A stretch of 64,000 bases of DNA from Thermomonas sp. (lineage in GTDB: Bacteria > Pseudomonadota > Gammaproteobacteria > Xanthomonadales > Xanthomonadaceae): the NCBI GenBank assembly GCA_020692565.1, contig JAIMKJ010000012.1, forward strand, positions 26,347-90,346, written 5' to 3'. Every line of letters begins with the position of its first letter. Within the stretch, counting starts at the first letter, position 1. A program made the translations under genes and the position numbers. Under the pieces are notes generated by a model, which saw only the letters and a program-made list of their open reading frames with translations, did not search any database and was not told where the DNA came from. Positions 6,071 through 61,102 of this stretch are shown here, in pieces.

Positions 6071-6715
6071 ATGTCCAGCGCTTCGCAAAAACCGCTCAAC
6101 CCGACGCTCAGCCCCCTGTCCCGCCTGATCTTTGCCTCGCGCTGGCTGCAGCTGCCGCTGTATCTGGGCCTGATCGTGGCCCAGGGCGTGTACGTGTTCC
6201 TGTTCGGCAAGGAGTTGTGGCACCTCATCCACGACACGCCGACGCTCAGCGAACAGGACATCATGCTGATCGTGCTGGGCCTGATCGATGTGGTGATGAT
6301 CTCCAATCTGCTGATGATGGTGATCGTGGGCGGCTACGAAACCTTCGTTTCGCGGATGAATCTGGCGGGCCATCCCGATCAGCCGGAATGGTTGAGCCAC
6401 GTCAATGCCAGCGTGCTCAAGGTCAAGCTGGCGATGGCGATCATCGGCATCTCCTCGATCCATCTGCTCAAGAGTTTCATTGAAGTCGGCATGGTCGACG
6501 GCCTGCCGCTGTGCAGCACGATCGCTGGCGTCGAGGCGATGAAAGTCATGCAGCCGTTGATCGATGCCGGGCAGAAACTCAAGCCCTGCACCACGATCAC
6601 CTCGGCCGGCGTGATGTGGCAGGCGATCATCCATGCGCTGTTCATCGTCTCGGCGATCGGCATCGCCTGGACCGACCGGATCATGATGGGCAGTTCGACC
6701 AAGCGCGATCATTGA
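6071..6715 (+). CDS. TIGR00645/UPF0114 (YqhA-like) membrane protein
   Basis: SRWLQLPLYLGL, LGLIDVVMISNLLMMV, GGYETFVSR, LKVKLAMAIIGISSIHLL. Confidence 0.88.
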   Translation: MSSASQKPLNPTLSPLSRLIFASRWLQLPLYLGLIVAQGVYVFLFGKELWHLIHDTPTLSEQDIMLIVLGLIDVVMISNLLMMVIVGGYETFVSRMNLAGHPDQPEWLSHVNASVLKVKLAMAIIGISSIHLLKSFIEVGMVDGLPLCSTIAGVEAMKVMQPLIDAGQKLKPCTTITSAGVMWQAIIHALFIVSAIGIAWTDRIMMGSSTKRDH

Positions 6716-10911: not shown

Positions 10912-11032
10912 TAAAAAGCCCCGCAGGTGGGGGAACCGGCGGGGCTGGGAACGGGACTTGGGGAGAGTCTTACGTTCCGGCGACCACTCCAGGGGAGGGA
11001 GTGGTCTGCGACGGACGTTGCATCCGTCGCGA
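10912..11032 (-). ncRNA. sX13-like small RNA
   Basis: Downstream of polA on the same strand; three hairpins with C-rich loops (CUCCC, CUCCCCA, UUCCCCCA); the last is followed by a U tract, matching the described Xanthomonadaceae sX13 position and fold. Confidence 0.75.
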
Positions 11033-19077: not shown

Positions 19078-19883
19078 GCGAACGTCTGCACATGACCGTC
19101 AGCGGCGACGGCCCGCCGCTGGTGCTGCTGCACGGCTGGGCGATGCACGGCGGCGTGTTCGCCGCGCTGGTCGAGCGCCTGCGCGATCGACACACCTTGC
19201 ATGTGATCGACCTGCCCGGCCACGGCGGGAGTCGCGACGACATCACGCCGCTGGCCTTCGATGCGGTCTGCGACGCCATCCACGCGCAGACGCCGCCTGC
19301 ACCCTGGCTCGGCTGGTCGCTGGGCGGCATGTTCGCGCTGCATGCGGCGGTACGCGATCCCGCGCGGGTGCCGGCGCTGATCGCGCTGTGCAGCAGCCCG
19401 TGTTTCGTCCGCGGCGACGACTGGCGTTACGGCGTGTCGGCGGAGATCTTCCGCGATTTCGCCAAGGGCCTGAGCGACGACTATCGCGCCACGCTCGACC
19501 GCTTCGTCGCGCTGGAAGCCTTCGGCTCCGATCACGCGAAAGAAGAGATGCGCGAGCTGCGCGCCGAACTGTTCGCGCGCGGCGAGCCCGCGGCGCGCGT
19601 GCTCGTCGACGGCCTGCGCATTCTCGAAACCGTCGATCAGCGTCCGTTGCTGTCGCAACTGCGCGTGCCGAGTCTGTGGATCGCCGGCCGCCGCGACCGT
19701 CTGGTCGACCCGCGCGCGATGCGCGAAGCGGCCGCGATGATCGAACAGGCCGGACACGCGCCCGCGACCTTCGCGCAGATCGACCATGCCGGGCACGCGC
19801 CGTTCCTCACGCATGTCGATGAAGTCGTCGCGCACGTGTCCGCATTCCTGTCCGGCGTCTCGACAAGTCGCGCATCGCAATGA
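19074..19883 (+). CDS. bioH: Pimeloyl-ACP methyl ester esterase
   Basis: LHGWAMH, GWSLGG nucleophile, HAPFLTH; bio operon context. Confidence 0.93.
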   Translation: MSERLHMTVSGDGPPLVLLHGWAMHGGVFAALVERLRDRHTLHVIDLPGHGGSRDDITPLAFDAVCDAIHAQTPPAPWLGWSLGGMFALHAAVRDPARVPALIALCSSPCFVRGDDWRYGVSAEIFRDFAKGLSDDYRATLDRFVALEAFGSDHAKEEMRELRAELFARGEPAARVLVDGLRILETVDQRPLLSQLRVPSLWIAGRRDRLVDPRAMREAAAMIEQAGHAPATFAQIDHAGHAPFLTHVDEVVAHVSAFLSGVSTSRASQ

Positions 19884-20818
19884 CCGCACTGTTCGACCCG
19901 CGCCAGGTCCGTCGCGCCTTCTCGCGCGCGTCCGCCAGTTACGCTGATGCCGCGAAACTGCAGCGCGAAGTCGAATCGTGGCTGCTCGAATCGCTCGATT
20001 ACTACGCGGAAAACCGCGACGGCGATGCGCAGACACCGGCGCTCGTCGTCGATGTGGGCTGCGGCCCAGGCCACGCCTCGCGCGCATTGCAGCAGCGCTG
20101 GCCGAAAGCACAGGTGCTCGCGCTGGATCTCGCGCTGCCGATGCTGCGCCAGCACGATGTCGACACCTCGGCCTTCGCGCGCGCGCTGCCTGGCGCGTTC
20201 TCGCGTCTGCTCGCACGGACGCCGGCGCGCATCTGCGCCGACGCGCGCGCGCTGCCGCTCGCCGACCACAGCGTGGATCTGCTGTTCTCGAATCTCTGCC
20301 TGCAATGGATCGAAGATTTGCCGGCGGTGTTTGCCGGCTTCCGCCGCGTGCTCAAGCCCGGCGGCATGCTGGTGGTCTCCACCTTCGGCCCCGACACGCT
20401 GTACGAACTGCGCGGCGCCTTCGCCCAGGCCGATGCCGTGCCGCACGTCAGCCCGTTCGCGTCGATCGCGCAGTTCGGCGACGCGCTCATCGCCAGCGGC
20501 TTCCGCAACCCGGTGCTCGATCGCGACGAACTCACCACCCGCTACGCCGACCTGCCCGCACTGATGCGCGAACTCCGCGCCATCGGCGCCACCAACGCGC
20601 TGCACGCGCGTCGGCACACGCTCACCGGCAAGGCCCGCTTCGCTGCCGCTGCGAATGCCTACGAAACGTTCCGCGACAATGATCGACTGCCCGCGACGTG
20701 GGAAATCATCTCCGCGCTGGCGTGGGCGCCGGATCATGGCGTGCCGATCCGGGAAAGCGGGGAGGATGTGGCGAGGTTCCCGGCGAGTGGGATTCCGGTG
20801 AGGCGCAGGGTTGAGTAA
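19880..20818 (+). CDS. bioC: Malonyl-ACP O-methyltransferase
   Basis: RRAFSRA, DVGCGPG SAM motif, FSNLCLQW, FSTFGPDTLYEL-like segment. Confidence 0.93.
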   Translation: MTALFDPRQVRRAFSRASASYADAAKLQREVESWLLESLDYYAENRDGDAQTPALVVDVGCGPGHASRALQQRWPKAQVLALDLALPMLRQHDVDTSAFARALPGAFSRLLARTPARICADARALPLADHSVDLLFSNLCLQWIEDLPAVFAGFRRVLKPGGMLVVSTFGPDTLYELRGAFAQADAVPHVSPFASIAQFGDALIASGFRNPVLDRDELTTRYADLPALMRELRAIGATNALHARRHTLTGKARFAAAANAYETFRDNDRLPATWEIISALAWAPDHGVPIRESGEDVARFPASGIPVRRRVE

Positions 20819-20850
20819 ACGAGGCAGACTGCGCTTATCGTCGTCAGCCA

Positions 20851-20904
20851 TTGACGAGTCTTCGTTGACACCGTTGAATGTCTCGAATCAATATCCGGTA
20901 TCGC
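20851..20904 (+). promoter_or_regulatory. Promoter-like module, copy 1 (upstream of the cassette array)
   Basis: TTGACA at 20865 and CAATAT at 20889; near-identical copy at 22728-22781. Confidence 0.55.
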
Positions 20905-20937
20905 CCCTCGCATGGGGTCGAATAGGCGTTACGGCCC

Positions 20938-21252
20938 ATGAAAATTGTTGCAACAGCTGTAGTATTTTTACTCTTCGCTGGCTGCACTGGCACATATGAA
21001 ACTATGCCATTGCCTGAAGCAGGTACGGATTACTACACAGCCAGAGAGAAACTTATCGCTGCGGGTTGGCAACCTGCCCCAGCCAGATGCTCTGAACGCA
21101 ACATCTGTTTTAGTGATCTCCCTGAACTCGCCACCAATCTAGATACTGCATCTACATGTGGCATGTTCTTAAAGAGAAGTTCTTCTATTCGCGTGTGTGG
21201 CCAAGCAATACCAGACGGAATGCTCGTAAAGAATGCTCAGACTGGGCCCTAA
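20938..21252 (+). CDS. Cassette 1: hypothetical lipoprotein (104 aa)
   Basis: Lipobox FAGC; AREKLIAAGWQP motif; several Cys; TAA stop lies within attC1. Confidence 0.75.
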   Translation: MKIVATAVVFLLFAGCTGTYETMPLPEAGTDYYTAREKLIAAGWQPAPARCSERNICFSDLPELATNLDTASTCGMFLKRSSSIRVCGQAIPDGMLVKNAQTGP

Positions 21253-21358
21253 CAATTCGTTCAAGCCGACCCCATGTCGTGGCGTCGGTCATGTGCATAA
21301 GCTACGCTAGCACGCGTCCGCCGCCCCGCTGCGGGTCGGTTTAACTCAGGCGTTAGGC
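21247..21358 (+). repeat. attC site 1
   Basis: CCCTAAC...GTTCAAGCCGACCC...GGGTCGGTTTAAC...GTTAGGC; unpaired extra base in L''. Confidence 0.88.
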
Positions 21359-21362
21359 CCAC

Positions 21363-21800
21363 ATGGCAGAGCACATCATCCTTCCAACCGCTCGCACCAG
21401 GACCGCTGCGCTACTGAAGCTTGGCGCGTCAATTGCAGTTGTCGCCGGGCTGGTGTTGGCCGCTCGTCTGTATTCCACCCATCTCGCACCGCTTCCCACG
21501 TGCGCTCAGCTACCGTGGATTCGGTTGGTCGCTATCGTAGGCGCATTAGGGTTGCTCTCCCTCGCCGTTCTGTTCTACCGCAGCGGACTGAAAGTCTGGC
21601 GCTCTGGCCAGTTCCCCGCACCAGGCACGCCAGTCATCTTTGCTACCAAGGTTTCTACTGGCTGGTGGGCTCGCGCCAATGCAGTTACATTGCTCTTGCT
21701 CGCTGCCCTCTCGGCAGCAGGCTTTGCCCTCTGGTCTCAGTTCTTCGTCTTCTCGCAATTTGGGGCATATATTCTTGGGTTTCGCAGCTGTGGGGCCTGA
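21363..21800 (+). CDS. Cassette 2: hypothetical membrane protein (145 aa)
   Basis: Three hydrophobic segments; GQFPAPGT motif; TGA stop within attC2. Confidence 0.75.
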   Translation: MAEHIILPTARTRTAALLKLGASIAVVAGLVLAARLYSTHLAPLPTCAQLPWIRLVAIVGALGLLSLAVLFYRSGLKVWRSGQFPAPGTPVIFATKVSTGWWARANAVTLLLLAALSAAGFALWSQFFVFSQFGAYILGFRSCGA

Positions 21801-21854
21801 CAATTCATTCAAGCCGAAGCCGTTTCGCGGCGCGGCTTGATTCAGGCGTTAAGT
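21795..21854 (+). repeat. attC site 2 (60 bp)
   Basis: GCCTGAC...TTCAAGCCG...CGGCTTGA...GTTAAGT. Confidence 0.88.
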
Positions 21855-21897
21855 GCCTTTGTTACACTGCCAATATTCCTCAAACAGGAAACTTGCC

Positions 21898-22113
21898 ATG
21901 CCGACTGATAAAGCGAAGACAAACAGCAGCACTGGCGTTGGTATCGCTGTTGGTGTCGCCATTGGCGTAGCGCTCGGCGCAGCCTTTGATCAGCTTGCTC
22001 TGGGCATTGCCATCGGTACGGCATTCGGCGCTTCGATCGATGTCTTCTCTCACGTAAAGCGCAAGAAGAACATCAGCGCTGACTCTGAAATAGACTCAGA
22101 CGGTAAGAGGTAG
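21898..22113 (+). CDS. Cassette 3: small glycine-zipper membrane protein (71 aa)
   Basis: AGGA RBS; GVGIAVGVAIGVALGAA...LGIAIGTAFG GxxxG repeats. Confidence 0.75.
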   Translation: MPTDKAKTNSSTGVGIAVGVAIGVALGAAFDQLALGIAIGTAFGASIDVFSHVKRKKNISADSEIDSDGKR

Positions 22114-22132
22114 GGCACACTTCTTGGCCGGC

Positions 22133-22253
22133 GCCGAATACTATCGTTCAAGCCGCCCCCGTGTCGTAGCGCCGGTCACGTGCCTTCGCTACGCTGGCAC
22201 ATGCCTGTCATGTCCGACGCCCTCCGCAGGGCCACTCAACTCAGGCGCCAGGT
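22133..22253 (+). repeat. Decayed attC site 3
   Basis: GTTCAAGCCG and AACTCAGGC retained and interior resembles attC1, but core boxes are mutated (GCCGAAT, GCCAGGT). Confidence 0.7.
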
Positions 22254-22273
22254 CTCACGGATGAAATTACCGA

Positions 22274-22618
22274 ATGTCCAGGATTGAACTTGGTTGCCCT
22301 TCATGCTCGACCGCTGTTCTTCAACGACAACAGCGCCGAATGAATGGTTTTTTTGGGCTCCGATCTGTTCCTTGCAGCGGTTGTGGTCTGTTGCTGCAGT
22401 ATCACTCTTCACTTCTGCCTCGCCTGCGTTTCGGAGGCCACATATTCAGATTCGGGCTTCTGATCATTGCCGCATGGGTGACGCTGGAAGTTCTGGACGT
22501 GTTCTCAGCACGCGTCCTTGCCATTACCGCATGGACAGGCATCAGCGTTGTGCTGGCCGGTATTCTGTTGACCGCAACACGTCCAAGTTCTATCCGCGTG
22601 GAGGTCGTCAGCCACTAG
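22274..22618 (+). CDS. Cassette 4: zinc-ribbon plus two-TM hypothetical protein (114 aa)
   Basis: CPSC and CSGC pairs followed by two hydrophobic helices. Confidence 0.65.
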   Translation: MSRIELGCPSCSTAVLQRQQRRMNGFFGLRSVPCSGCGLLLQYHSSLLPRLRFGGHIFRFGLLIIAAWVTLEVLDVFSARVLAITAWTGISVVLAGILLTATRPSSIRVEVVSH

Positions 22619-22670
22619 TCAAGGCAAGGCTGAAAGCCGCAGCCGGGGCTCTTCGCAGAGATGTTCCCTG

Positions 22671-22710
22671 CGTCATCCCGGGTCCGCGCGTTGCACGGAC
22701 ACCGGGCTAC
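22671..22710. repeat. REP-like hairpin; related copy at 23286-23318
   Basis: CATCCCGGGT.CGCGCGTTGC...ACCGGGC shared by both copies. Confidence 0.55.
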
Positions 22711-22727
22711 GACTTGCGCGGTTGCCG

Positions 22728-22781
22728 TTGACGAGCCTTGATTGACACTTTTGAAGAGCACGGATCAATATCCGGCATCGC
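22728..22781 (+). promoter_or_regulatory. Promoter-like module, copy 2 (upstream of SnoaL-like gene)
   Basis: TTGACA at 22742 and CAATAT at 22766, same spacing as copy 1. Confidence 0.55.
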
Positions 22782-22843
22782 TTTATGGATAGCGCTGAAT
22801 CGGCGCGAGGCGCCATGAACCCCATCGAAGGTGAATCAACGCA

Positions 22844-23239
22844 ATGAACCCCCATCCGATCCAGACATGGCACCGGCTTGTCGCATCCGTCGATCCCTCC
22901 GGCCTGGATGAGCTCCTGGCCGACGATACCGTGTTCTTCTCGCCGATCGTCCATACGCCACAACGCGGCAAGGCGCTCGCAAAGGCCTATCTCGCTGCGG
23001 CTTTGCAGGTGTTTTCCAACCCGAGCTTTCGCTACGTGCGTGAGATCATCGGTCCCTCCGATGCGATGCTGGAATTCGAGACGGAGGTCGATGGGGTCCT
23101 GGTCAACGGGGTCGACATCATCAAGTGGAACGAATCGGGCAAGATCGTCGAGTTCAAGGTCATGCTCCGTCCGCTCAAAGCGATTGGACTGATCCACGAG
23201 CGCATGGGCGCCATGCTCGCGGCGAAGCACCCCGGGTAA
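22844..23239 (+). CDS. NTF2/SnoaL-like protein
   Basis: LLADDTVFFSPIVHTPQRGK, NGVDIIKWNESGKIVEFKVMLRPLKA. Confidence 0.88.
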   Translation: MNPHPIQTWHRLVASVDPSGLDELLADDTVFFSPIVHTPQRGKALAKAYLAAALQVFSNPSFRYVREIIGPSDAMLEFETEVDGVLVNGVDIIKWNESGKIVEFKVMLRPLKAIGLIHERMGAMLAAKHPG

Positions 23240-23526
23240 GGCCGAGGATCGCACCCTGGACTCTTCTGGGAGTTTGAACTTGCCCCATCCCGGGTGCGCG
23301 CGTTGCGTTTAACCGGGCGATGTCATCGCGCTCGCGTGAGCGCTGGCGAATGGCGTGCCGACCCGCGAAAGTCGTGAAGATGCGGCGAGGGTCCCGGCGA
23401 GTGGAATTGCGGTTCGGCGGCGTTGAATCCGATCCCGGATTGATCCCGAAGACCGTATTGCGCACGTAGCCGGCGACGAGCAAGCTCTTCCGCACAGGGC
23501 GCATGGGCCCATCGAGGACGGCGGTC

Positions 23527-24096
23527 ATGCAGACATCGTTCCAGAAGAAGCTCGCCACGATCGCGCAGGGCCAATACGACAGGTATCGCTTTCTGCGCGA
23601 GAACCAGGAGCCGCTCTCGACACAAATCAAGGCGTATTGGCGAGGCATCGGGCTGCCGTTTCCCGGCGTGGATGAGGCGTGGTCGGCGGTCTTCGTGTCG
23701 TGGTGCGTCAAGAATGCCGGGGCGACCGCTGCACAGTTCAAATTCTCGTCCGCGCATTCCCGCTTTGTCCACGCGGCAATCGCGAACGCGCAGTCCGGGA
23801 ATGGTGTTTTCCACGGGCGTCGCCCCTTGGAATACGCGCCTAAAACCGGCGACATCCTTCACAACAACCGTGCCGGAAATCGTTTCGACTTCGACTTCGC
23901 CAAAGCGAACAAGCAATACAAATCGCATTCGGCCATCGTCATCGAAGTCGGCACCGACAGTCGCGGCCGATATCTGCGCACCATCGGCGGCAACGAAGGC
24001 GATTCCGTCGGCATGAAGGAAGTGCGGTTGACGGCGCGCGGCCTGGTCAAGAACGGCGATGGCCTGTACATCGCCGTCATCGAAACGCTGCTTTGA
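23527..24096 (+). CDS. DUF2272 / CHAP-like putative peptidoglycan amidase
   Basis: AWSAVFVSWC, HSRFV, P..GDIL, SHSAIV, TIGGNEGDSV motifs. Confidence 0.7.
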   Translation: MQTSFQKKLATIAQGQYDRYRFLRENQEPLSTQIKAYWRGIGLPFPGVDEAWSAVFVSWCVKNAGATAAQFKFSSAHSRFVHAAIANAQSGNGVFHGRRPLEYAPKTGDILHNNRAGNRFDFDFAKANKQYKSHSAIVIEVGTDSRGRYLRTIGGNEGDSVGMKEVRLTARGLVKNGDGLYIAVIETLL

Positions 24097-24106
24097 GGAG
24101 AAGGCC

Positions 24107-24775
24107 ATGAAGCCCATGATCCAACGTGCGTTCCTGGCGCTGTTGTTGGCGACGCTGGGTGGTTGCGCGACCTTCCGCGGCGCCCCCGACCTGCCGTTCG
24201 AAAGCGGCAAGGTCTTCGGCAAAGACGAAACACAGAATGCGTTGAAGAAGCTTGCCTCCGGCGACCCGAATTTCGATGAGGCAACTCGCAATGAGCAGGT
24301 CATCAAACTCGTCGCCGCGATCGATCTGAGTTACGGTGATTTCAAGCAGCAGTTCATGGCCCAGCGCCAGCACGTGGGAAGTCTGTCCGACGCCTTGGTC
24401 CTGGCGATGACCGTTGCCGGGTCGTTGACAAATTCCGCAGGCGTCAAAGAGCACTATCTGCAAGGCATCGCATTGGTGCGTGGCGGAACCGAGAACTACG
24501 ACAAGAATTATCTGCTCACCCAGACGGTGCATGCGCTGGTCGCGCAGATGGATGCCAGTCGCAAACAGAAGCTGCAGGAAATCTACCAGAAGATGACCAA
24601 CAGCGATCTCGTGCAGTATCCGGCGATCGCGGCTTATAACGACGTGCTCGATTACTATCACGCCGGCACGGTGCTGGGGGCCATCCTTTCGATACAGGCA
24701 GACGCCAAACAGAAGGAAAACGAAGCGAACGCGTTGCTGAGCCCGATGCTGACTTCGGACAAGATCACGCGATAG
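24107..24775 (+). CDS. Hypothetical helical lipoprotein
   Basis: GAGGAG RBS 10 nt after the DUF2272 stop; lipobox LGGC; YP...DVLDYYHAGT motif. Confidence 0.8.
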   Translation: MKPMIQRAFLALLLATLGGCATFRGAPDLPFESGKVFGKDETQNALKKLASGDPNFDEATRNEQVIKLVAAIDLSYGDFKQQFMAQRQHVGSLSDALVLAMTVAGSLTNSAGVKEHYLQGIALVRGGTENYDKNYLLTQTVHALVAQMDASRKQKLQEIYQKMTNSDLVQYPAIAAYNDVLDYYHAGTVLGAILSIQADAKQKENEANALLSPMLTSDKITR

Positions 24776-24885: not shown

Positions 24886-25311
24886 TCAACTCACCTGCGC
24901 GATCCAGTCCTGCAGGTTGTAGTGGTTCGTGACGCGCGCGATCCTGCCTTCATGGATGTCGAAGAACGCGCCGCCTGACAGCACGTACTTCTGGCCGTTC
25001 GCAGGCGGCAATCCGTCGTCGGCGACCAGGTATTCGCCATGCACGACATATTCGGCGGCGGCGCGGGCGCCGTCGGGCGAGGCCATCACCACGATGTCGC
25101 GCAGATGTTCGCGATAGCTGCGGTCCATGCGCGCGAGAAAAGCGGCGAAGGCGTCGCGGCCGGTTTCGCGCGTGCCCTGGTTGAGGTCGTGGGCCACGTC
25201 ATCGGTGAGGAGCGCCAGCATCGCGGCCCAATCGCCGCGGTTGAAGGCGGCGTAGTAGGCAAGGATGAGCGTGGTGGCGCGGTCGTGCGCGCGGGTACCG
25301 TCGATGATCAT
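24886..25311 (-). CDS. Ketosteroid-isomerase-related (SnoaL fold) protein
   Basis: YYAAFNRGDW..ML.LL..DVAHDLNQG, RITRVTNHYNL-like C-terminus. Confidence 0.85.
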   Translation of the reverse strand: MIIDGTRAHDRATTLILAYYAAFNRGDWAAMLALLTDDVAHDLNQGTRETGRDAFAAFLARMDRSYREHLRDIVVMASPDGARAAAEYVVHGEYLVADDGLPPANGQKYVLSGGAFFDIHEGRIARVTNHYNLQDWIAQVS

Positions 25312-25334
25312 GGGGGAATGCTCCAGGAAACGGT

Positions 25335-25994
25335 TCAGCGCGGCGACACGAACAGATCGCGATGGAAGAAATACACCTCGCTGAGCAGGAAACGCCAGCG
25401 CGTGTCGAAGCTGCGGTAGCGGCTGGTCGGCGTGGGCGAGCCGAGGCAGACGATGCCGACCTCGCCGCAGATGCGCAGCGCGCGCGACATGTGCAGCGGG
25501 TCGCTGACCACGACCGCGCGGCCGAGTTCGCGTTGACGCATCAGCGCCGCGGCCTCGCTGAGGTTCTCGCGGGTGTTGCGCGATACGGTCTCGATCATGA
25601 TCCCGTCGTCGGGCACGTCGCGGCGCAGCGCGTAGCGACGCCCGACCTGCGATTCGGCGAACCGCGCGCCGTTGCCGCCGAAACCGCCGGTGAAGATCAG
25701 GGTCGGCGCCAAGCCGCGTTTGTAGAGATCGATGCCGTGGCGGATGCGTTCCTCGAACACCGGCGACGGCCGCGCGTCGTAGGCAGCGGCGCCGAGCACG
25801 ATGATCGCGTCGGCGCGGACGCCATCGCCGGCGGCGTCGTCGCGCGCGCCGACGTGCATGATGTAGAGCGCCACGCCGCATAACCACAGCAGCAGCAAGA
25901 CCAGCAGACGCCGCAGCCAGCGGAACACGCCACCGCGCTTGCGGCGCTTCCCGGACGCGCGCTGGATCAACGGCGGTGGTGCGCCGCGACTCAT
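25335..25994 (-). CDS. YdcF/DUF218 family protein
   Basis: IIVLGAA, IFTGG, ETVSRNTREN, VVSDPLHMSRA. Confidence 0.88.
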   Translation of the reverse strand: MSRGAPPPLIQRASGKRRKRGGVFRWLRRLLVLLLLWLCGVALYIMHVGARDDAAGDGVRADAIIVLGAAAYDARPSPVFEERIRHGIDLYKRGLAPTLIFTGGFGGNGARFAESQVGRRYALRRDVPDDGIMIETVSRNTRENLSEAAALMRQRELGRAVVVSDPLHMSRALRICGEVGIVCLGSPTPTSRYRSFDTRWRFLLSEVYFFHRDLFVSPR

Positions 25995-26962
25995 GCCTGC
26001 GCTTGCCAGGGCAGGGTGTCGAGGTCGACATTCCCGCCGGAAATCACGATGCCGATGCGGCGCCCGGCGAAGCGGTCGCGATGGCGCAGCACGGCGGCGA
26101 ACGCGATCGCGCCCGAGGGTTCGACCACGAGTTTCAAGCGTTCCCACAGCAGCCGCATCGCTTCGACCACTGCGTCGTCGTCGATGACGAGGATGCCGTC
26201 GATGTGACGCTGCAGCAGCGCCAGCGTGCGCGGCGCGAGATGCCCGCGCAGGCCGTCGCAGATGGTGTGGGCGGTCATGTCGGTGATGCAGCGGTTTTCT
26301 TGCAGGGAGGCGTGCGCATCGGCCGCGCCTGCGGGCTCTGCGCCCCAGATCTCCAGATCCGGTCGTAGCGTGCGCGCGGTCAGTGCGCAGCCCGAGAGCA
26401 GACCGCCGCCGCCGACCGGCGCCAGCAGGGCGTCGAGATCCGGTTCGCTGCGCAACAGTTCCAGCGCCACCGTGCCCTGTCCGGCGATCACGTCGCTGTC
26501 GTCGAAAGGATGTACCGGATGCCCGCCGGTCCGGGCGACCAGCGCGTCCGCGGCGGCGACGCGGGCGGCCATCGTCGGCGCGCAGCGGACGATGGTCGCG
26601 CCGTAGCCGGCGATGGCTTTCAGTTTCACCGCCGGTGCGCCTTCGGGCACCACCACGGTCGCGGGCACGCCGCGCAGGCGGCTGGCCAGCGCGACCGCTG
26701 CGCCGTGGTTGCCGGAGCTCTGGGTCACGATGCCGCGTGCGGCGGCGGTGTCGTCCAGCGAAAAGATCGCATTGCAGGCACCGCGGAACTTGAAGGCACC
26801 GACGCGCTGCAGGTTCTCGCATTTGAAATGCAGTTCGCAGCCGGCGAAGTCGTCGAGCGATCGCGAACGCAGTACTGGCGTGCGCTGGGCATGCGGGGCG
26901 ATCCGGGCCGCGGCCGAAAGCACGGCGGCGAAGTCGGGCAACGGCGGTACGGCGGCGGTCAT
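25991..26962 (-). CDS. PLP-dependent serine/threonine dehydratase (serine racemase-like)
   Basis: KCENLQRVGAFKFRGA, SSGNHG, PVGGGGLLSG, VISGGN. Confidence 0.9.
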   Translation of the reverse strand: MTAAVPPLPDFAAVLSAAARIAPHAQRTPVLRSRSLDDFAGCELHFKCENLQRVGAFKFRGACNAIFSLDDTAAARGIVTQSSGNHGAAVALASRLRGVPATVVVPEGAPAVKLKAIAGYGATIVRCAPTMAARVAAADALVARTGGHPVHPFDDSDVIAGQGTVALELLRSEPDLDALLAPVGGGGLLSGCALTARTLRPDLEIWGAEPAGAADAHASLQENRCITDMTAHTICDGLRGHLAPRTLALLQRHIDGILVIDDDAVVEAMRLLWERLKLVVEPSGAIAFAAVLRHRDRFAGRRIGIVISGGNVDLDTLPWQAQA

Positions 26963-28109: not shown

Positions 28110-28440
28110 ATCGCCGACCCCCGGCGGGGAAATCCGGATCCCCCCTGTTCCGCTCCCCGTCGGGCGTCGGCACCTAAGTCAGTAAGGCGCGGCGCACCCG
28201 TGTCTTTCCGGGACGCCCGGAACCCTCCCTCTTGAATCAGATATCGAACCTCTCGGGTCGATGGTGATCATGGGCGATGCGCGCGACTGTTCCGGATCGC
28301 GGACATCGGCAGATGAAAACACGCAGACAAAAAAAGGGGCCGAATGTCCCCCGACATTCGGCCCCTGGCTCCCTCAACGCGCACGTGGCCAGCCCTGTTC
28401 CACCCCGGCCTGCGCTTTCGCGCATGCCGCGCTGAGTGCC
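28110..28440 (-). ncRNA. Candidate sigma54-dependent sRNA locus with three GGAACAG-loop hairpins
   Basis: No convincing CDS; sigma54 promoter, intrinsic terminator at 28329-28365, repeated loop motif at 28145, 28287 and 28395. Confidence 0.55.
28329..28365 (-). terminator. Intrinsic terminator of the candidate sRNA
   Basis: GGGGCCGAATGTC/GACATTCGGCCCC 13-bp stem followed by 7 U on the minus strand. Confidence 0.85.
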
Positions 28441-44600: not shown

Positions 44601-47261
44601 TCATGCCGGAGCGGGTTGCAGTCTCGGCAGCGTAATCCGAATCGTGGTGCCGCGGCCACGTCCGCCGGGCAAGGCTTCGACGCTGCCGCCGTGCGCGCCG
44701 ATCATGCCCTGGCAGATGGTCAGCCCCAGGCCGGTGCCTTCGCGCCCACGGTCGCCACGCTCCACGCTGTAGAACATGTCGAAGATGCGCTGGCGCTCGT
44801 CTTCGGGAATGCCCGGGCCGCTGTCGGTCACATCGATGCGCAGCGCACCGCTGCCATCGTCCATCGCTTCAATGGCGACTGCGGCGCCCGGCGGCGAGAA
44901 CTTCGCGGCGTTCTCGATCACGTTGAACAGCGCCTGCTCCACCAGCGCGGGATGCACCCAGAGCGGTGCGAGGCCTTCGGCGATCCGCAATTCGCAGTGC
45001 GCATCGGGCTGGTAGCGTTTCAGCCGGCCCACGGCCGAACCGATCAATTCGTCCACGCCGATCCAGTCGCGATTCAGCGACAGCCCGCCGTGGCCCAGCC
45101 GGGTCATGTCGAGCAGATTCTGGATGTAGCGGTCCAGGCGCTCGCCCTCGATGCGAATGGTGTCGAGCAGATCGGCGCGATCCTTCGCGTCCATCTGCGC
45201 GCCATAGTGTTCCAGGCTGGACGCCGAACCGATGATCGACGCCAGTGGCGAGCGCAGATCGTGCGACACCGACGACAGCAGCGCCGAGCGAAGACGTTCG
45301 GTTTCCCCGGCCACGCGCGCGTCCTCCAGATCGGAGACCAGCCGCGTGCGCAACACCGACTGGGCGATGTCGTCGATCATCGCTTCGGCCAGGCGGCGCT
45401 GTTCGGAAGTGAGGCGCGTCGCCCCGGTCACGAAGCGCAGACCGACCACGCCGAGCGTGCGCGCGTTGCCCAGCAGCGGCAGGAACCACCAGTCGACCCC
45501 CGACAGCGTATCGGTGTAGCGGCCGGCGGGCTGCCCGTGCTTCAAGACCCAATCCGCCGCCGAGCCGGCTTTCTGGTCCATGCCGACCTCGGCATCCGGT
45601 TGCAGCGGATCGATGCCCAGATGCACGACGACATCGGCATCGAGCGCGCGGCGCAGCGCGACCCGCGCCGCCTGCTCGACCTGCCGCGGGTCGGCGGCGC
45701 TGGCGAGATCGCGGCTGAGCGATTGCAGCGCGGTCGCGTGCGCGTTGGCTGCGCGCAATGCGATCACCTGCGAACGCAGTTTCGCGGCCAGCCGCCCGGC
45801 CAGCAGCGCCGCACCCAGGAACAGCAGCACGGTGGTCACGCCGCGGTGGGCGCTGATATAGAACGTGAATCGCGGCGCGATGAAGAAGAAGTTGTAGGCC
45901 AGAAAGCACAGCATCGCCGCCAGCACCGCCGCGGCCATGCGCGTGCGGGTAGCGACGATCAGTACCCCGACGATGAAGACCATCGACAGATCGGTCAGGC
46001 CGAGCCAGCGTTCGGCGACGCCGGCCACCACCACCGCCAGCACCGAGCACAGCACCGCAAACCCCATGTCCCCGGCGCGCAGGGTGTCGCGGGTGTCGCC
46101 GAACCAGCGCCGCGCCTGTGCGCGCGCCTCCGGCGAACTGACGATGGTCAGTTCGTAATGCGCGCCGCGCTGCAGCAGTTGTTGGGTGATGGTGCGATTG
46201 AGCATGCGCGCGAACGGACGCTCGCGGGTCCGGCCGACGATGATCGCGGACGCGCCGCTGCGCGAGGCGTGATCCAGCAGCGCGTCCACCACGTTGGCAC
46301 CATGCAGCAGCTCCGCACTGCCGCCCAGCCGGCGCGCCAGCGCGAACGCACGCTCGATCTCCTGCTGCGCTTCCGGTCTGGATTCGCCGATCTGCACGCT
46401 GACCACCGTCCACGGCGCATCGCGGCGCTCGGCGATGCGGCGGGCGATCCGCACCAGATACTCCGATTGGCCGCGGCCGTCGATCGCCACCAGCACCTGT
46501 CGGCGCAGATTCAGTGCCGGCTCGCCGTGCGCGGTGCGCGCCTCGCGCAGATCGCTGTCGACCCGGTCCGCCGCCGTCTGCATCGCCAGTTCGCGCAGCG
46601 CGGCGAGGTTCGCCGGCACGAAGAACGACTGCAGCGCCTGCGCCGCGTGATCGGGCAGATAGACCTTGCCCTGATTGAGGCGTTCGATCAGTTCGTCCGG
46701 CGGCAGGTCCACCAGCACGATGTCGCGCAGCCGGTCGAACACAGAATCGGGCACCGTTTCGGCGACGCGCACGCCGGTGATGCGGTGCACGACATCGTTG
46801 AGGCTTTCGAGATGCTGGATGTTGATCGTGGTGTGGACGTCGATCCCGGCGTCCAGCAGTTCCATCACGTCCTGCCAGCGCCGCTCGTGGCGGCTGCCCG
46901 GCGCATTGCGATGCGCCAGTTCGTCGACCAGCGCGACCTGCGGCCGGCGCGCCAGCAGCGCGTCGAGATCCATTTCCTCCAGGGTGCGGTCGCGGTAAGC
47001 CACGCGGCGGCGCGGCAGCACTTCCAGACCTTCCAGCATCGCCGCGGTATCGACGCGGCCGTGGGTTTCCACCAGGCCGACCGCGACATCGATCCCGCGA
47101 TGTTTCAGGTCGCGCGCCCGCCCGAGCATCGCGCAGGTCTTGCCCACGCCCGGCGCCGCACCGAGGAACACCGTCAGCCGTCCGCCGCGCTGACGCTTGA
47201 GTTCGCCGATCAGGGCATCGGCCTGCTGTTGGCGCTGCGCAGCGTTGCGGGCGTCGTTCAT
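44601..47261 (-). CDS. kdpD: Sensor histidine kinase KdpD
   Basis: FLGAAPGVGKT, VDELAH, TTINIQHLESLND, USP domain, TM helices, SVSHDLRSPL. Confidence 0.96.
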   Translation of the reverse strand: MNDARNAAQRQQQADALIGELKRQRGGRLTVFLGAAPGVGKTCAMLGRARDLKHRGIDVAVGLVETHGRVDTAAMLEGLEVLPRRRVAYRDRTLEEMDLDALLARRPQVALVDELAHRNAPGSRHERRWQDVMELLDAGIDVHTTINIQHLESLNDVVHRITGVRVAETVPDSVFDRLRDIVLVDLPPDELIERLNQGKVYLPDHAAQALQSFFVPANLAALRELAMQTAADRVDSDLREARTAHGEPALNLRRQVLVAIDGRGQSEYLVRIARRIAERRDAPWTVVSVQIGESRPEAQQEIERAFALARRLGGSAELLHGANVVDALLDHASRSGASAIIVGRTRERPFARMLNRTITQQLLQRGAHYELTIVSSPEARAQARRWFGDTRDTLRAGDMGFAVLCSVLAVVVAGVAERWLGLTDLSMVFIVGVLIVATRTRMAAAVLAAMLCFLAYNFFFIAPRFTFYISAHRGVTTVLLFLGAALLAGRLAAKLRSQVIALRAANAHATALQSLSRDLASAADPRQVEQAARVALRRALDADVVVHLGIDPLQPDAEVGMDQKAGSAADWVLKHGQPAGRYTDTLSGVDWWFLPLLGNARTLGVVGLRFVTGATRLTSEQRRLAEAMIDDIAQSVLRTRLVSDLEDARVAGETERLRSALLSSVSHDLRSPLASIIGSASSLEHYGAQMDAKDRADLLDTIRIEGERLDRYIQNLLDMTRLGHGGLSLNRDWIGVDELIGSAVGRLKRYQPDAHCELRIAEGLAPLWVHPALVEQALFNVIENAAKFSPPGAAVAIEAMDDGSGALRIDVTDSGPGIPEDERQRIFDMFYSVERGDRGREGTGLGLTICQGMIGAHGGSVEALPGGRGRGTTIRITLPRLQPAPA

Positions 47262-47282: not shown

Positions 47283-47873
47283 TCACCGCAGCGCATCCAG
47301 CGCGAGATTCAGCTCGACCACGTTCACGCGCGGCTGGCCGAGCACGCCGAACTGCGGCGCTTCGACCGTGCGTTCGACCAGCCCGGCGACGGCGGCGACC
47401 GTCAAGCCGCGCGCCCTGGCGACGCGCGCGATCTGCACCCGCGCGGCGGCCGGCGAGAGATGGGGGTCCAGCCCGCTGCCGGAGCGGGTCGCGAGATCGG
47501 CCGGCACCTGCGCCGACGTGATGCCCTCGCGCGCGGCGACCGCGGCGATCTGGTCATCGATGGTCCTGATGAGATCGGGATGGGTACGCGCCTGATTGCT
47601 GCCGGCGGCGGCCATCGGGTCGTAGCCCGCGGCCGACGGACGCGGATGGAAATAGCGCGCGTCGGCGAACGGCTGGGCGACCCAGCGCGACGCGACCGGC
47701 TTGCCGTCGCGGACCAGCAGGCTGCCGGTGGACTGCTGTGGGAACAGCAGTCCGCCCAGCGATGCGACGCCCGCCGAATACAGAAAACCGAAACCGAGCA
47801 GGGCGACGGCGGCCATCGTCAGCGCCGGGCGCCAGGCGCCGCGTGTGATCAACGTTTGGGAAGACGTTTGCAT
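47283..47873 (-). CDS. kdpC: K+-transporting ATPase subunit C
   Basis: YFHPRPSA, GSNQA, SGSGLDPHLSP, VNVVELNLALD. Confidence 0.95.
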   Translation of the reverse strand: MQTSSQTLITRGAWRPALTMAAVALLGFGFLYSAGVASLGGLLFPQQSTGSLLVRDGKPVASRWVAQPFADARYFHPRPSAAGYDPMAAAGSNQARTHPDLIRTIDDQIAAVAAREGITSAQVPADLATRSGSGLDPHLSPAAARVQIARVARARGLTVAAVAGLVERTVEAPQFGVLGQPRVNVVELNLALDALR

Positions 47874-54030: not shown

Positions 54031-54103
54031 TGGGCCCACCAGGACTCGAACCTGGAACCAAAGGATTATGAGTCCTCTGCTCTAACCATTGAGCTATAGG
54101 CCC
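54031..54103 (-). tRNA. tRNA-Ile2 (CAT, lysidine type); CCA not encoded
   Basis: GGGCCTATAGCTCAATGGTTAGAGCAGAGGACTCATAATCC...GGTTCGAGTCC; CTCATAA loop and location after rpoD resemble E. coli ileX. Confidence 0.9.
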
Positions 54104-60049: not shown

Positions 60050-61102
60050 TCAGCCCAAGCCCCAATAGCCCAGCTTCGAGCGGATCTGCAGCGCCCGGAA
60101 TCGGCCGCCCAGCGGTTTGCCGCGCAGCGGTCCCAGCCTGCCGGCGATCAGGTCGTCGGTCGCGGCGATGACGCGCTCCGATGCGCGGCCATCGCGATAC
60201 GGATGAATGGCGTCGGCGTAGTCCGCCAACGCCGCGCGCAGCGTCTCCGTTGGCGCGAATGCCTGTTCCAGCAACGCCGGCAAATCCGGCGGATCGTCGA
60301 AATCCAGCATGTGCGGCTTCGGTGCGCGATTGCGGAAGGTCACCACCGGTTTGTGCTGGACCACGAATTCGGACACCACCGACGTGGTGTCCGCCACCAG
60401 CACGTCGGCGGCGCGCTGCGCGGCCATCAGCTGTTCGGTTTCGACGAACGCGGCGTTCGGCCCGGCCAGGCCGCGGTAGCGCTCGAACAGATCCGGCGCG
60501 CACTTCGGATGCAGGGTCAGCAGCCAGTAGCGGTCGCCGCGCGCCACTTCGGCGGCGATGGCGTCGAACAGATGCGGTGCGGCGCTCAGGCGTTCGGTGA
60601 AGGTGGACGCGAACAGCACCGTTGGCCGCTCGCCCGCGGGCGAGCGCAGTGCGGCGGAAGCGCCGCCGTCGTCGCGGAACAGCGGATCGAGCTTCGGCCA
60701 GCCGGTTTCGACCACGGCAAAGTGAGGATGCCCGGCCGCCAGCGTGCGGAACGGCGCGGTCGTCGCCGGTCCCTGGGTGCAGTACAGATCGAACAGCCCG
60801 CGCACCCGGAAGTGACCGCGGGCGGCGTCGCGTTTCTCCACGTTGAAGCCGTGGAACAGCTGCACTTTCGGGCCGCTGAGGAAGGTCGGCACCCAGTTGG
60901 CCGCCGACAACACCGCGCGCGGCCGCAGCGCCACCGCTTCGCGCAGGCCCACGCTGCGCACCGGCGCCGGCAGGCGCGCGCCCGCGGCGCCGTCGACCAG
61001 CCAGGCGGACACCCCGTGTCCCGAGGCTTGCAGCGCGTCCGCCAACGGTTGCAGGATGGGCAGCGCATAACGCTCGGTCGCGAACAACAGGTATTCCGCC
61101 AT
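60050..61102 (-). CDS. CDP-glycerol glycerophosphotransferase family protein (LPS/surface glycan)
   Basis: GGAG RBS; VQLFHG, TGWPKLDP, TLHPK, DVLVADTTSV. Confidence 0.85.
   Translation of the reverse strand: MAEYLLFATERYALPILQPLADALQASGHGVSAWLVDGAAGARLPAPVRSVGLREAVALRPRAVLSAANWVPTFLSGPKVQLFHGFNVEKRDAARGHFRVRGLFDLYCTQGPATTAPFRTLAAGHPHFAVVETGWPKLDPLFRDDGGASAALRSPAGERPTVLFASTFTERLSAAPHLFDAIAAEVARGDRYWLLTLHPKCAPDLFERYRGLAGPNAAFVETEQLMAAQRAADVLVADTTSVVSEFVVQHKPVVTFRNRAPKPHMLDFDDPPDLPALLEQAFAPTETLRAALADYADAIHPYRDGRASERVIAATDDLIAGRLGPLRGKPLGGRFRALQIRSKLGYWGLG

What the first reader, a model, noticed from the sequence alone, without database searches (positions are those of the whole stretch)
20928..22618. 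Orphan integron cassette array (CALIN) at the 3' end of the biotin operon
Seen: intact attC sites at 21247-21358 and 21795-21854. Cassette starts match their own R'' boxes (GTTACGGCCC vs GGGCCCTAAC; GTTAGGCCC vs GGGCCTGAC), as expected from circular intermediates. No tyrosine recombinase is present in the 64 kb. Known: Xanthomonas chromosomal integrons usually sit next to ilvD. Inference: cassettes were inserted in trans at a secondary site, or the integrase was lost.
Basis: partly seen in the sequence, partly recalled or inferred. Interest (0 to 1): 0.7.

Follow-up and report, generated by a model that had tools for sequence, protein, structure and literature searches.

The report
Integrase-less integron array with own attI
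The low-GC block after the biotin gene bioC is a genuine integron gene-cassette array that has no integrase gene beside it but keeps its own docking site (attI). Related species hold entirely different cassettes at the same site, so it was probably filled by the genome's one integron integrase, encoded on another contig.

Summary
A covariance model built only from attC sites outside this contig scores the two reported sites at 127.9 and 55.4 bits. It also finds a third, decayed site at 22136-22256. The whole 94-kb contig has no tyrosine recombinase.

The 75-85 nt just 5' of the first cassette (20850-20936) are a homologue of the attI site that lies beside intI throughout this genus. The first cassette starts exactly at its GTT.

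The genome has one intact intI, on another contig beside comEC. It also has a second orphan attI heading a further array on contig C61.

- Eight of 43 congeners carry the same bioC-attI junction.
- Where the interval is assembled, flanks are 85-93% identical but no cassette is shared.
- Each first cassette carries the attI x attC insertion signature.
- Cassette 1 recurs (92% and 58% aa) between attC sites in metagenomic arrays.
- Four other congeners have a complete integron at bioC, and three keep intI stubs there.

Best reading (0.65): an ancestral integron locus that lost intI but kept attI and is served in trans. By definition it is a CALIN. The retained, reused attI is a new variant of a known kind.

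The parts
19880..20818 (+). bioC, last gene of the bioF / alpha-beta hydrolase / bioC cluster. Its last ~10 nt differ from most congeners ('type A' end), which marks the left junction of the attI module.
   Evidence: Pfam methyltransferase hits. 3' ends compared across 20 species.
20806..20936 (+). Orphan attI module ('attI*'). Positions 20850-20936 are homologous to the intI-proximal attI of the genus: TTGACA, N18, CAATAT, then CGCCCC-N5-GGGGTCGAATAGGCGTTA. The crossover GTT is at 20928-20930. The left 45 nt are shared only with other attI* copies.
   Evidence: blastn and nhmmer against the intI-linked attI of 28 congeners, 48.2 bits, E 3e-12 in the whole genome. 63-67% identity to group 1 attI, with all invariant columns kept.
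20929..21352 (+). Cassette 1. ORF 20938-21252 encodes a 104-aa predicted lipoprotein (lipobox LFAGC, GC3 0.38). attC1 is at 21244-21361 and is intact.
   Evidence: CM 127.9 bits. Homologues at 92% and 58% aa lie between attC sites of the same family in metagenomic arrays.
21353..21848 (+). Cassette 2. ORF 21363-21800 encodes a 145-aa membrane protein. attC2 at 21792-21857 is of the short type, with R'' TGAC instead of TAAC.
   Evidence: CM 55.4 bits. Hairpin z -4.1. A 46% homologue in Pseudoxanthomonas sp. PXM02 has no attC hit from model R1 in its 4-kb flanks.
21849..22249 (+). Cassette 3. ORF 21898-22113 encodes a 71-aa glycine-rich membrane peptide. attC3 at 22136-22256 is decayed, with both R boxes lost.
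   Evidence: CM 38.4 bits with mispaired R boxes. No significant fold.
22250..22618 (+). Cassette-like segment 4. ORF 22274-22618 encodes 114 aa with Cys pairs and two TM segments. It has no attC and abuts the REP element.
22619..22722 (+). REP-like hairpin element with a degenerate left arm. It is the constant right-hand boundary of the variable block in all species compared.
22724..22819 (+). Fossil second attI* copy. It is 71% identical to 20847-20942 without gaps, keeps the TTGACA...ATCAATATCC part and has lost the GTTA core. It lies in front of the SnoaL gene.
   Evidence: the repeat finder family D1. nhmmer 18.2 bits covering the first 41 of 72 profile positions only. Conserved at 79-93% in seven relatives.
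22844..23239 (+). SnoaL-like gene (131 aa), followed by a second REP copy at about 23231-23318. Probably an old unit of the same platform.
   Evidence: Pfam PF12680. REP blast.
23327..23420 (+). Remnant of a bioC 3' end ('type B', 81% identical to 20712-20805). It is followed by a DUF2272 gene (23503-24096) and a lipoprotein gene (24107-24775), in the arrangement seen directly after bioC in relative G009.
24886..26031 (-). Conserved anchor gene (SnoaL-domain, 381 aa) that closes the hypervariable gap between bioC and the anchor.

Best explanation
This is an integron platform without its integrase. An attI recombination site, probably with a cassette promoter, lies 4-115 nt after the bioC stop codon. 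Four cassettes follow it: two have usable attC sites, one has a decayed attC and one has none.

**Shown**
- The sites are genuine.
- The attI is a homologue of intI-linked attI sites.
- The cassettes begin at its GTT.
- The only integron integrase of the genome (intact, 487 bits) is on another contig beside comEC.
- Relatives with the same bioC-attI junction carry entirely different cassettes.

**Inferred**
- The locus descends from an integron that once sat at bioC, as it still does in four congeners, and that lost intI before the G000 subclade split.
- Since then the comEC-linked IntI has excised cassettes as circles (attC x attC) and inserted them at this orphan attI in trans (attI x attC at G|TT).
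- The first cassette is transcribed from the conserved TTGACA-N18-CAATAT element inside attI, and/or by read-through from bioFHC.
- The distal cassettes are decaying.
For: 1. attC sites are validated by an independent CM and belong to the same family as those beside the genome's own intI.
2. Positions 20850-20936 align without spacing changes to the attI of 28 intI-linked copies and keep all invariant columns: TTGAC, CCC, GGG-C-A-T, GTT.
3. The insertion signature is present. The first bases after GTT are complementary to the same cassette's R'' in G000 (10/11), G053 (10/10), G043 (12/12; its second cassette 11/11), G010 (12/13) and the C61 copy (9/9 and 12/12).
4. There is turnover. Eight of 43 congeners share the bioC-attI* junction. 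Where the interval is assembled (G053, G043, G010, G044), the flanks are 85-93% identical. An all-against-all blast of the intervals finds only attC matches between species, plus one weak 67% match between the incomplete G022 and G050 pieces. No G000 cassette recurs.
5. Cassette 1 is mobile. Homologues at 92% and 58% aa sit between attC sites in three metagenomic arrays.
6. An intact intI exists in trans.
7. The bioC locus is an integron site. Complete integrons lie at bioC in G001, G052, G056 and G045. intI stubs lie between bioC and attI in G018, G005 and G004. Orphan group 2 attI with arrays lies there in G007 and G015.
Against:
- attI* differs from the cognate comEC-linked attI at about 35% of positions, including the left core box. 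Integron integrases usually prefer their own attI (my knowledge of the class 1-3 work), so recognition is not assured.
- attI* as a whole evolves about as fast as bioC third codon positions (0.76-0.84 against 0.77-0.83), so purifying selection on it is not demonstrable.
- No intI remnant exists in the window itself.
- attI* is closer to group 1 attI (63-67%) than to the group 2 attI that actually sits at bioC in other species (48%). Its descent from a bioC integron is therefore not proven.
- G043 has the platform with two cassettes bearing perfect junction signatures but no detectable intI.
- The consensus promoter scan finds no sigma-70 promoter here; the -10 matches only 3 of 6.
- Every array ends without a terminal attC, which simple attI x attC insertion does not predict.
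Confidence: 0.65

Rival explanations
1. Frozen relic. The array was assembled while an integrase still sat at this locus, in this lineage or in donors. Nothing has recombined here since intI was lost, and differences between species reflect separate histories or losses.
For: - The distal half of the array is decaying: attC3 is broken and cassette 4 has no attC.
- attC2 has a mutated R'' triplet.
- attI* shows no measurable constraint.
- G043 keeps a similar array without any intI.
- Three congeners show intI decay at this locus.
Against: - All eight attI* carriers share the same intI-less junction, including 45 nt of non-attI left flank. A single loss therefore predates their divergence, yet no cassette is shared among the assembled arrays.
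- The first cassettes have near-perfect junction signatures and intact attC sites.
- Cassette 1 is 92% identical at protein level to a cassette in another array, which points to recent movement.
Confidence: 0.2
2. Block exchange by homologous recombination. Whole attI*-to-REP segments are swapped between strains, for example after natural transformation, using the conserved bioC/attI* and REP/SnoaL flanks as arms. No site-specific recombination occurs at this locus in this genome.
For: - Conserved flanks frame a fully replaced interior.
- A duplicated bioC 3' remnant at 23327-23420 and a partial bioC duplication in G024 show that recombination has reshaped this locus.
- The bioC 3' end exists in two versions.
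- Natural transformation is reported to drive cassette shuffling in chromosomal integrons (PMC12614218, title and abstract only).
Against: - The donor blocks must themselves have been built by insertion at an attI* site, and all 8 known attI* carriers lack intI there.
- The junction signatures are those of attI x attC events.
- This mechanism can add to trans insertion but does not replace it.
Confidence: 0.1
3. Cassettes inserted by an integrase at an ordinary genomic secondary site (attG-type insertion, as described by Loot and co-workers, bioRxiv 10.1101/2022.09.11.507474). This would create a small CALIN de novo.
For: - The array is small.
- No intI pseudogene lies nearby.
- No transposase flanks it.
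Against: - The sequence 5' of the crossover is a 75-85 nt homologue of the genus's attI, with identical spacing of all conserved blocks.
- The same module heads a second array on C61.
- The site is shared by eight species.
Confidence: 0.03

Closest known systems
CALIN (cluster of attC sites lacking an integron integrase; Cury et al. 2016, PMC4889954; IntegronFinder 2, PMC9024848)
   Same: Three same-strand attC sites lie within 1.1 kb, with no intI within 4 kb (here none on a 94-kb contig). The cassettes are small ORFs of unknown function. The genome also holds a complete integron elsewhere.
   Different: CALINs are defined without reference to attI, because attI is unknown for most integrons (PMC4889954). 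Here a full attI homologue heads the array, the same module occurs twice in the genome, and comparison across species shows turnover at it.
Sedentary chromosomal integrons of Xanthomonadaceae (Xanthomonas ilvD-linked integron and its conserved-position CALINs; PMC12444791)
   Same: The attC family has the same general form (TAAC-AATTCG-TTCAAGCC ... GGCTTAAC-TCAGGC-GTTA). intI loss and decay are frequent. CALINs sit at chromosomal positions conserved across species.
   Different: In this genus intI is beside comEC, bioC or two other loci, not ilvD. In the passages I read, the Xanthomonas paper does not mention attI sites at its CALINs.
Complete integron at bioC in congeners G001, G052, G056 and G045 (group 2 intI/attI)
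   Same: Same chromosomal position and orientation: bioC, then attI, then cassettes reading away from bioC.
   Different: Those have intI (on the minus strand) between bioC and attI. Their attI is only 48% identical to the window's attI*.
attG / SALIN route of cassette insertion (bioRxiv 10.1101/2022.09.11.507474)
   Same: Cassettes are found away from the integrase, which acts in trans.
   Different: attG sites are described as unlike attI in sequence and structure. This site is an attI homologue.

Membership tests
attC site (integron cassette recombination site) | Scores with an attC covariance model built from independent sites | tested here: met
   127.9, 55.4 and 38.4 bits. The model was built without any window site.
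attC site (integron cassette recombination site) | Inverse core sites R'' (RYYYAAC) and R' (GTTRRRY) that pair, and an imperfect hairpin of the bottom strand | tested here: met
   attC1: CCTAAC/GTTAGG paired, z -2.8. attC2: hairpin z -4.1, but R'' is TGAC. attC3 fails both criteria.
CALIN | At least two attC sites clustered on one strand | tested here: met
   Three sites lie within 21244-22256 on the + strand.
CALIN | No integron integrase nearby | tested here: met
   No PF00589 or TIGR02249 match on contig C35. tblastn with two IntI proteins finds no remnant in the window.
Complete integron | intI adjacent to attI | tested here: not met
   The bioC stop is 4 nt from the attI module. intI is on contig C6.
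Complete integron | attI site at the head of the array, with the first cassette joined at GTT | tested here: met
   Homology to 28 intI-linked attI sites. The cassette 1 start is complementary to its own R''.
Complete integron | Pc promoter reading into the cassettes | tested here: inconclusive
   A perfect TTGACA is invariant in all attI copies, with CAATAT 18 nt downstream. The consensus scan reports no promoter, because the -10 matches only 3 of 6. No transcript data were available.
Functional attI (recombined by IntI) | IntI binds the site and recombines it with attC | not testable with these tools
   The only support is indirect: junction signatures and cassette turnover across species.
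attG-type secondary-site insertion | The target is unlike attI and attC | tested here: not met
   The target is an attI homologue.

The most novel reading that the evidence does not exclude
This lineage runs a distributed integron: one integrase gene beside comEC serves several attI platforms. These are its own attI, the bioC-linked attI* and the C61 attI*. The bioC platform would be kept because it gives a second 'first position', where a captured cassette is expressed from the attI promoter and/or as the tail of the biotin operon. On this reading, integrase-less arrays that retain attI are a stable functional architecture and not debris. Much of the unexplained 95% of CALINs without intI pseudogenes could then be of this kind.
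Probability: 0.35. Interest if true: 0.7.

Novelty: new variant of a known kind. Interest (0 to 1): 0.5.

Why it matters
The origin of CALINs is an open point. Cury et al. found intI pseudogenes near only 5% of them (PMC4889954). Loot and co-workers proposed insertion at attG sites for small ones (bioRxiv 10.1101/2022.09.11.507474).

This locus shows both ends of a third route within one genus. The route is loss of the integrase with retention of a usable attI:
- complete integrons at bioC in four species;
- intI stubs there in three;
- clean intI-less attI platforms there in ten species (attI* in eight, group 2 attI in two).

Complete cassette replacement between species that share the same intI-less junction suggests such platforms go on capturing cassettes. 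If so, counting intI genes underestimates the number of active cassette-capture and expression sites in a genome. attI sites, which current tools search for only in classes 1-3, would then deserve genus-specific models.

The genus also shows the 'sedentary' integron at four different chromosomal loci.

Tried and rejected
- **Rfam scan of the window.** It found only sX13, asX1 and one tRNA. No Rfam family matched the attC sites, so I built my own model.
- **Weak CM hits at 45036-45107 and 60479-60601.** Inspected; they are coding sequence with no attC boxes, so I rejected them.
- **Misassembly through attC repeats.** Rejected. The contig continues for tens of kb on both sides, and seven species share the bioC-attI*...REP-attI*'-SnoaL framework.
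- **Pfam on the four cassette ORFs.** Nothing above cut-off.
- **Cassette 2 homologue in Pseudoxanthomonas sp. PXM02.** My CM finds no attC around it.
- **Two pattern scans of JGI metagenome contigs for the attI* core.** No match. So no attI* with a cognate intI was found, and there are no population variants.
- **The look-up of sequencing runs was closed.** No read-level test for excised circles or junction variants was possible.
- **Literature search for orphan or second attI sites.** It was swamped by 'attitude' matches and found nothing relevant.
- **REP element as a decayed or alternative attC.** It has no similarity to the attC consensus and no CM hit. It also occurs next to the anchor gene in species without arrays (G011, G002), so it is probably native flank.
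- **tRNA or Rfam gene at the C61 island repeat.** None found.
- **Organism name.** I did not establish it.

Full report
**1. What is at 20928-22618**

The sequence shows bioC ending at 20818. About 110 nt of non-coding DNA follow, then four small same-strand ORFs:
- 20938-21252
- 21363-21800
- 21898-22113
- 22274-22618

Repeats with TAAC-AATTCG-TTCAAGCC ... GGCTTAAC-TCAGGC-GTTA ends separate the ORFs. GC falls from about 0.70 to 0.49-0.63. Cassette 1 has GC3 0.38, against 0.83 for bioC.

To test the sites independently I laid the whole assembly in the Python box. I collected attC sites from other contigs and from the array of more than 70 cassettes in the complete genome G012. I aligned 48 of them with no window site included and built covariance model R1.

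With filters off over the whole window, R1 finds:
- 21244-21361 at 127.9 bits;
- 21792-21857 at 55.4 bits;
- 22136-22256 at 38.4 bits;
- everything else at 18 bits or less.

The bottom strands of the first two fold into the expected hairpins. The third does not, and both its R boxes are mutated. attC2 carries TGAC for TAAC in R''. Cassette 4 has no attC.

The whole genome has tyrosine recombinases only on C1, C6, C21 and C49, and none on the window's 94-kb contig.

**2.

The repeat finder showed that 20847-20942 recurs at 22724-22819. Blast against the genome showed a third copy at C61:908-1017.

Reading the intI-proximal region on C6 showed the same architecture next to the genome's only integron integrase: TTGACA, N18, CA(A/G)TAT, CGCCCC-N5-GGGGTCGA-N4-GCGTTA. 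That integrase scores 487.5 bits on TIGR02249 against a cut-off of 265, has no stops and has both Pfam integrase domains.

I fetched the intI loci of 28 congeners and extracted the sequence between intI and the first cassette. All share this architecture, in two sequence groups. The window element aligns to them without any change of spacing.

A profile of the 72-nt core finds exactly four places in the 4.2-Mb genome:
- C6 beside intI, 62 bits;
- the window, 48.2 bits;
- C61, 47.4 bits;
- the partial copy at window 22740-22780, 18.2 bits.

The window copy ('attI*') is 63-67% identical to group 1 attI, 48% to group 2 and about 80% to the other attI* copies. It keeps every column that is invariant in the alignment. 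The first cassette begins at its GTT (20928-20930).

**3. Were cassettes inserted at this attI?**

An attI x attC event puts the incoming cassette's own R' tail right after the GTT, so the first bases should be complementary to that cassette's R''. This holds:

| Array | Match |
|---|---|
| Window, first cassette | 10 of 11 |
| C61 copy | 9 of 9, then 12 of 12 for its second cassette |
| G053 | 10 of 10 |
| G043 | 12 of 12, then 11 of 11 |
| G010 | 12 of 13 |

Cassette 1 is also demonstrably a mobile cassette. Five homologues exist, all metagenomic. For the 92% and 58% homologues, the three encoding contigs are dense arrays in which the gene lies between two attC sites of this same family.

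**4. Comparison across the genus**

The gap between bioC and a conserved SnoaL-domain anchor gene (24886-26031, minus strand) ranges from 0.9 to 5 kb and differs in content in nearly every species.

Eight of 43 genomes carry attI* directly after a 'type A' bioC end: G000, G010, G022, G043, G044, G050, G053 and G057. In G057 and G022 only part of the region is assembled.

Where the interval is assembled, the frame is bioC-attI*-[variable]-REP-fossil attI*-SnoaL. Flanks are 85-93% identical. An all-against-all blast of the variable intervals finds only attC matches, and no G000 cassette recurs anywhere.

Because all carriers share the same intI-less junction, including 45 nt of non-attI left flank, the integrase was already absent in their common ancestor. 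The cassettes have been replaced since. G000, G010, G022, G044, G050 and G053 each have one intI, always beside comEC. G043 has none detectable.

**5. Where the platform came from**

- Group 1 intI always lies beside comEC.
- Group 2 intI lies directly downstream of bioC in G001, G052, G056 and G045, and at two other loci in eleven further species.
- intI stubs remain between bioC and an attI in G018 (N- and C-terminal pieces with an internal deletion), G005 (96 aa) and G004 (30 aa).
- G007 and G015 have group 2 attI plus 4-5 attC sites at bioC, with intI elsewhere.

So bioC is a recurrent or ancestral integron locus with repeated integrase loss.

Two points keep this from being proven for the window itself. 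There is no intI remnant here. And attI* resembles the comEC-type attI more than the bioC-type attI.

The locus has also been reshaped by other recombination:
- a type B bioC 3' remnant at 23327-23420, followed by the genes that directly follow bioC in G009;
- a tandem second unit, attI*'-SnoaL-REP'.

**6. Mechanism and its status**

- Shown: the sites, the homologies, the junction signatures, the absence of a local integrase, the presence of one intact integrase elsewhere, and cassette replacement between species.
- Inferred: that the comEC-linked IntI performs attI* x attC insertion in trans.
- Inferred: that TTGACA-N18-CAATAT is a cassette promoter. The strict scan does not call it.
- Inferred: that bioFHC transcription may read into cassette 1. 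No convincing terminator lies between them.

Against a strong functional claim, attI* evolves at roughly the synonymous rate of bioC, and every array lacks a terminal attC. No read data could be examined.

**7. Comparison with what is known**

By definition this is a CALIN (PMC4889954). That paper notes that attI is unknown for most integrons and so is not searched for. It found intI pseudogenes near only 15 of 279 CALINs.

The attG route (bioRxiv 10.1101/2022.09.11.507474) does not fit, because the target here is an attI homologue.

Xanthomonas genomes have CALINs at conserved loci (PMC12444791), but attI sites at them are not mentioned in the passages I read.

Earlier notes of this scan describe similar orphan-attI arrays in other genomes, including one downstream of bioC in a relative. 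Those are unchecked AI notes. My analysis of relatives was done before I read them, and it agrees with them.

**8. Verdict**

This is a genuine cassette array and a CALIN by definition. It is better described as an intI-less integron platform that retains attI and shows cassette turnover across species. It is a new variant of a known kind, of moderate interest.

Noticed in passing
G000 contig C61:1-1017 (locus L007), minus strand: A second orphan attI* (81% identical to the window copy over 110 nt) heads another array with two attC sites that runs off the contig end. It shares 45 nt of non-attI left flank with the bioC copy, so the module was copied as a unit. Relatives lack this copy.
   Followed up: partly
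L007 2600-2700 and 1020-1122 (contig C61): A direct repeat of about 100 nt containing a tRNA T-arm-like GGATTCGAATCC motif brackets about 1.5 kb just upstream of the C61 attI*. It looks like island att sites, but ARAGORN and Rfam find no tRNA or tmRNA.
   Followed up: partly
Genus-wide: loci L045-L073: The 'sedentary' integron occupies four different chromosomal loci in one genus: beside comEC (group 1), beside bioC, and at two further conserved loci (group 2). No genome has more than one intI.
   Followed up: partly
window 22619-22722 and about 23231-23318; also G000 C22:41751-41843: A hairpin element of about 100 nt (GTGAC-GTAGCCCGGGTAAGG ... CTTACCCGGGCTAC-GTCAC) forms the right end of cassette arrays at several loci and in several species. 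The last cassette always lacks an attC and abuts it. The element also lies next to the anchor gene in species without arrays.
   Followed up: partly
G000 C22:40700-41850: Another small integrase-less array: a truncated attC tail, one cassette, one short attC, then a second cassette that ends directly at a REP copy.
   Followed up: partly
G000 C17:49970-50471, C60:124095-124716, C23:31740, C34:18025, C69:9104: Further isolated or paired attC remnants are embedded in long contigs, so this genome has several scattered cassette relics besides the main array.
   Followed up: no
L022 about 6390-6460 (G010, minus strand): The single attC in G010's bioC array carries internal tandem duplications (TTCAAGCCG twice; GGCGTTAGGCGTTGCGGCTGC twice).
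   Followed up: no
L023 1500-1793 (G024): About 290 nt of the bioC 3' end are partially duplicated in tandem downstream of bioC. This is another sign that the locus recombines.
   Followed up: no
L001 / C6 about 47780-47800, and all group 1 intI loci: A conserved palindrome, GGCGGTACGACATACCGC, lies between the intI start and attI (GCCGTGATAAGACATATCGGGG in group 2). It may be a regulator binding site for intI.
   Followed up: no
window 28330-28438 (-), 10912-11019 (-), 54031-54103 (-): Rfam hits to the Xanthomonadaceae sRNAs asX1 and sX13, and one tRNA.
   Followed up: no
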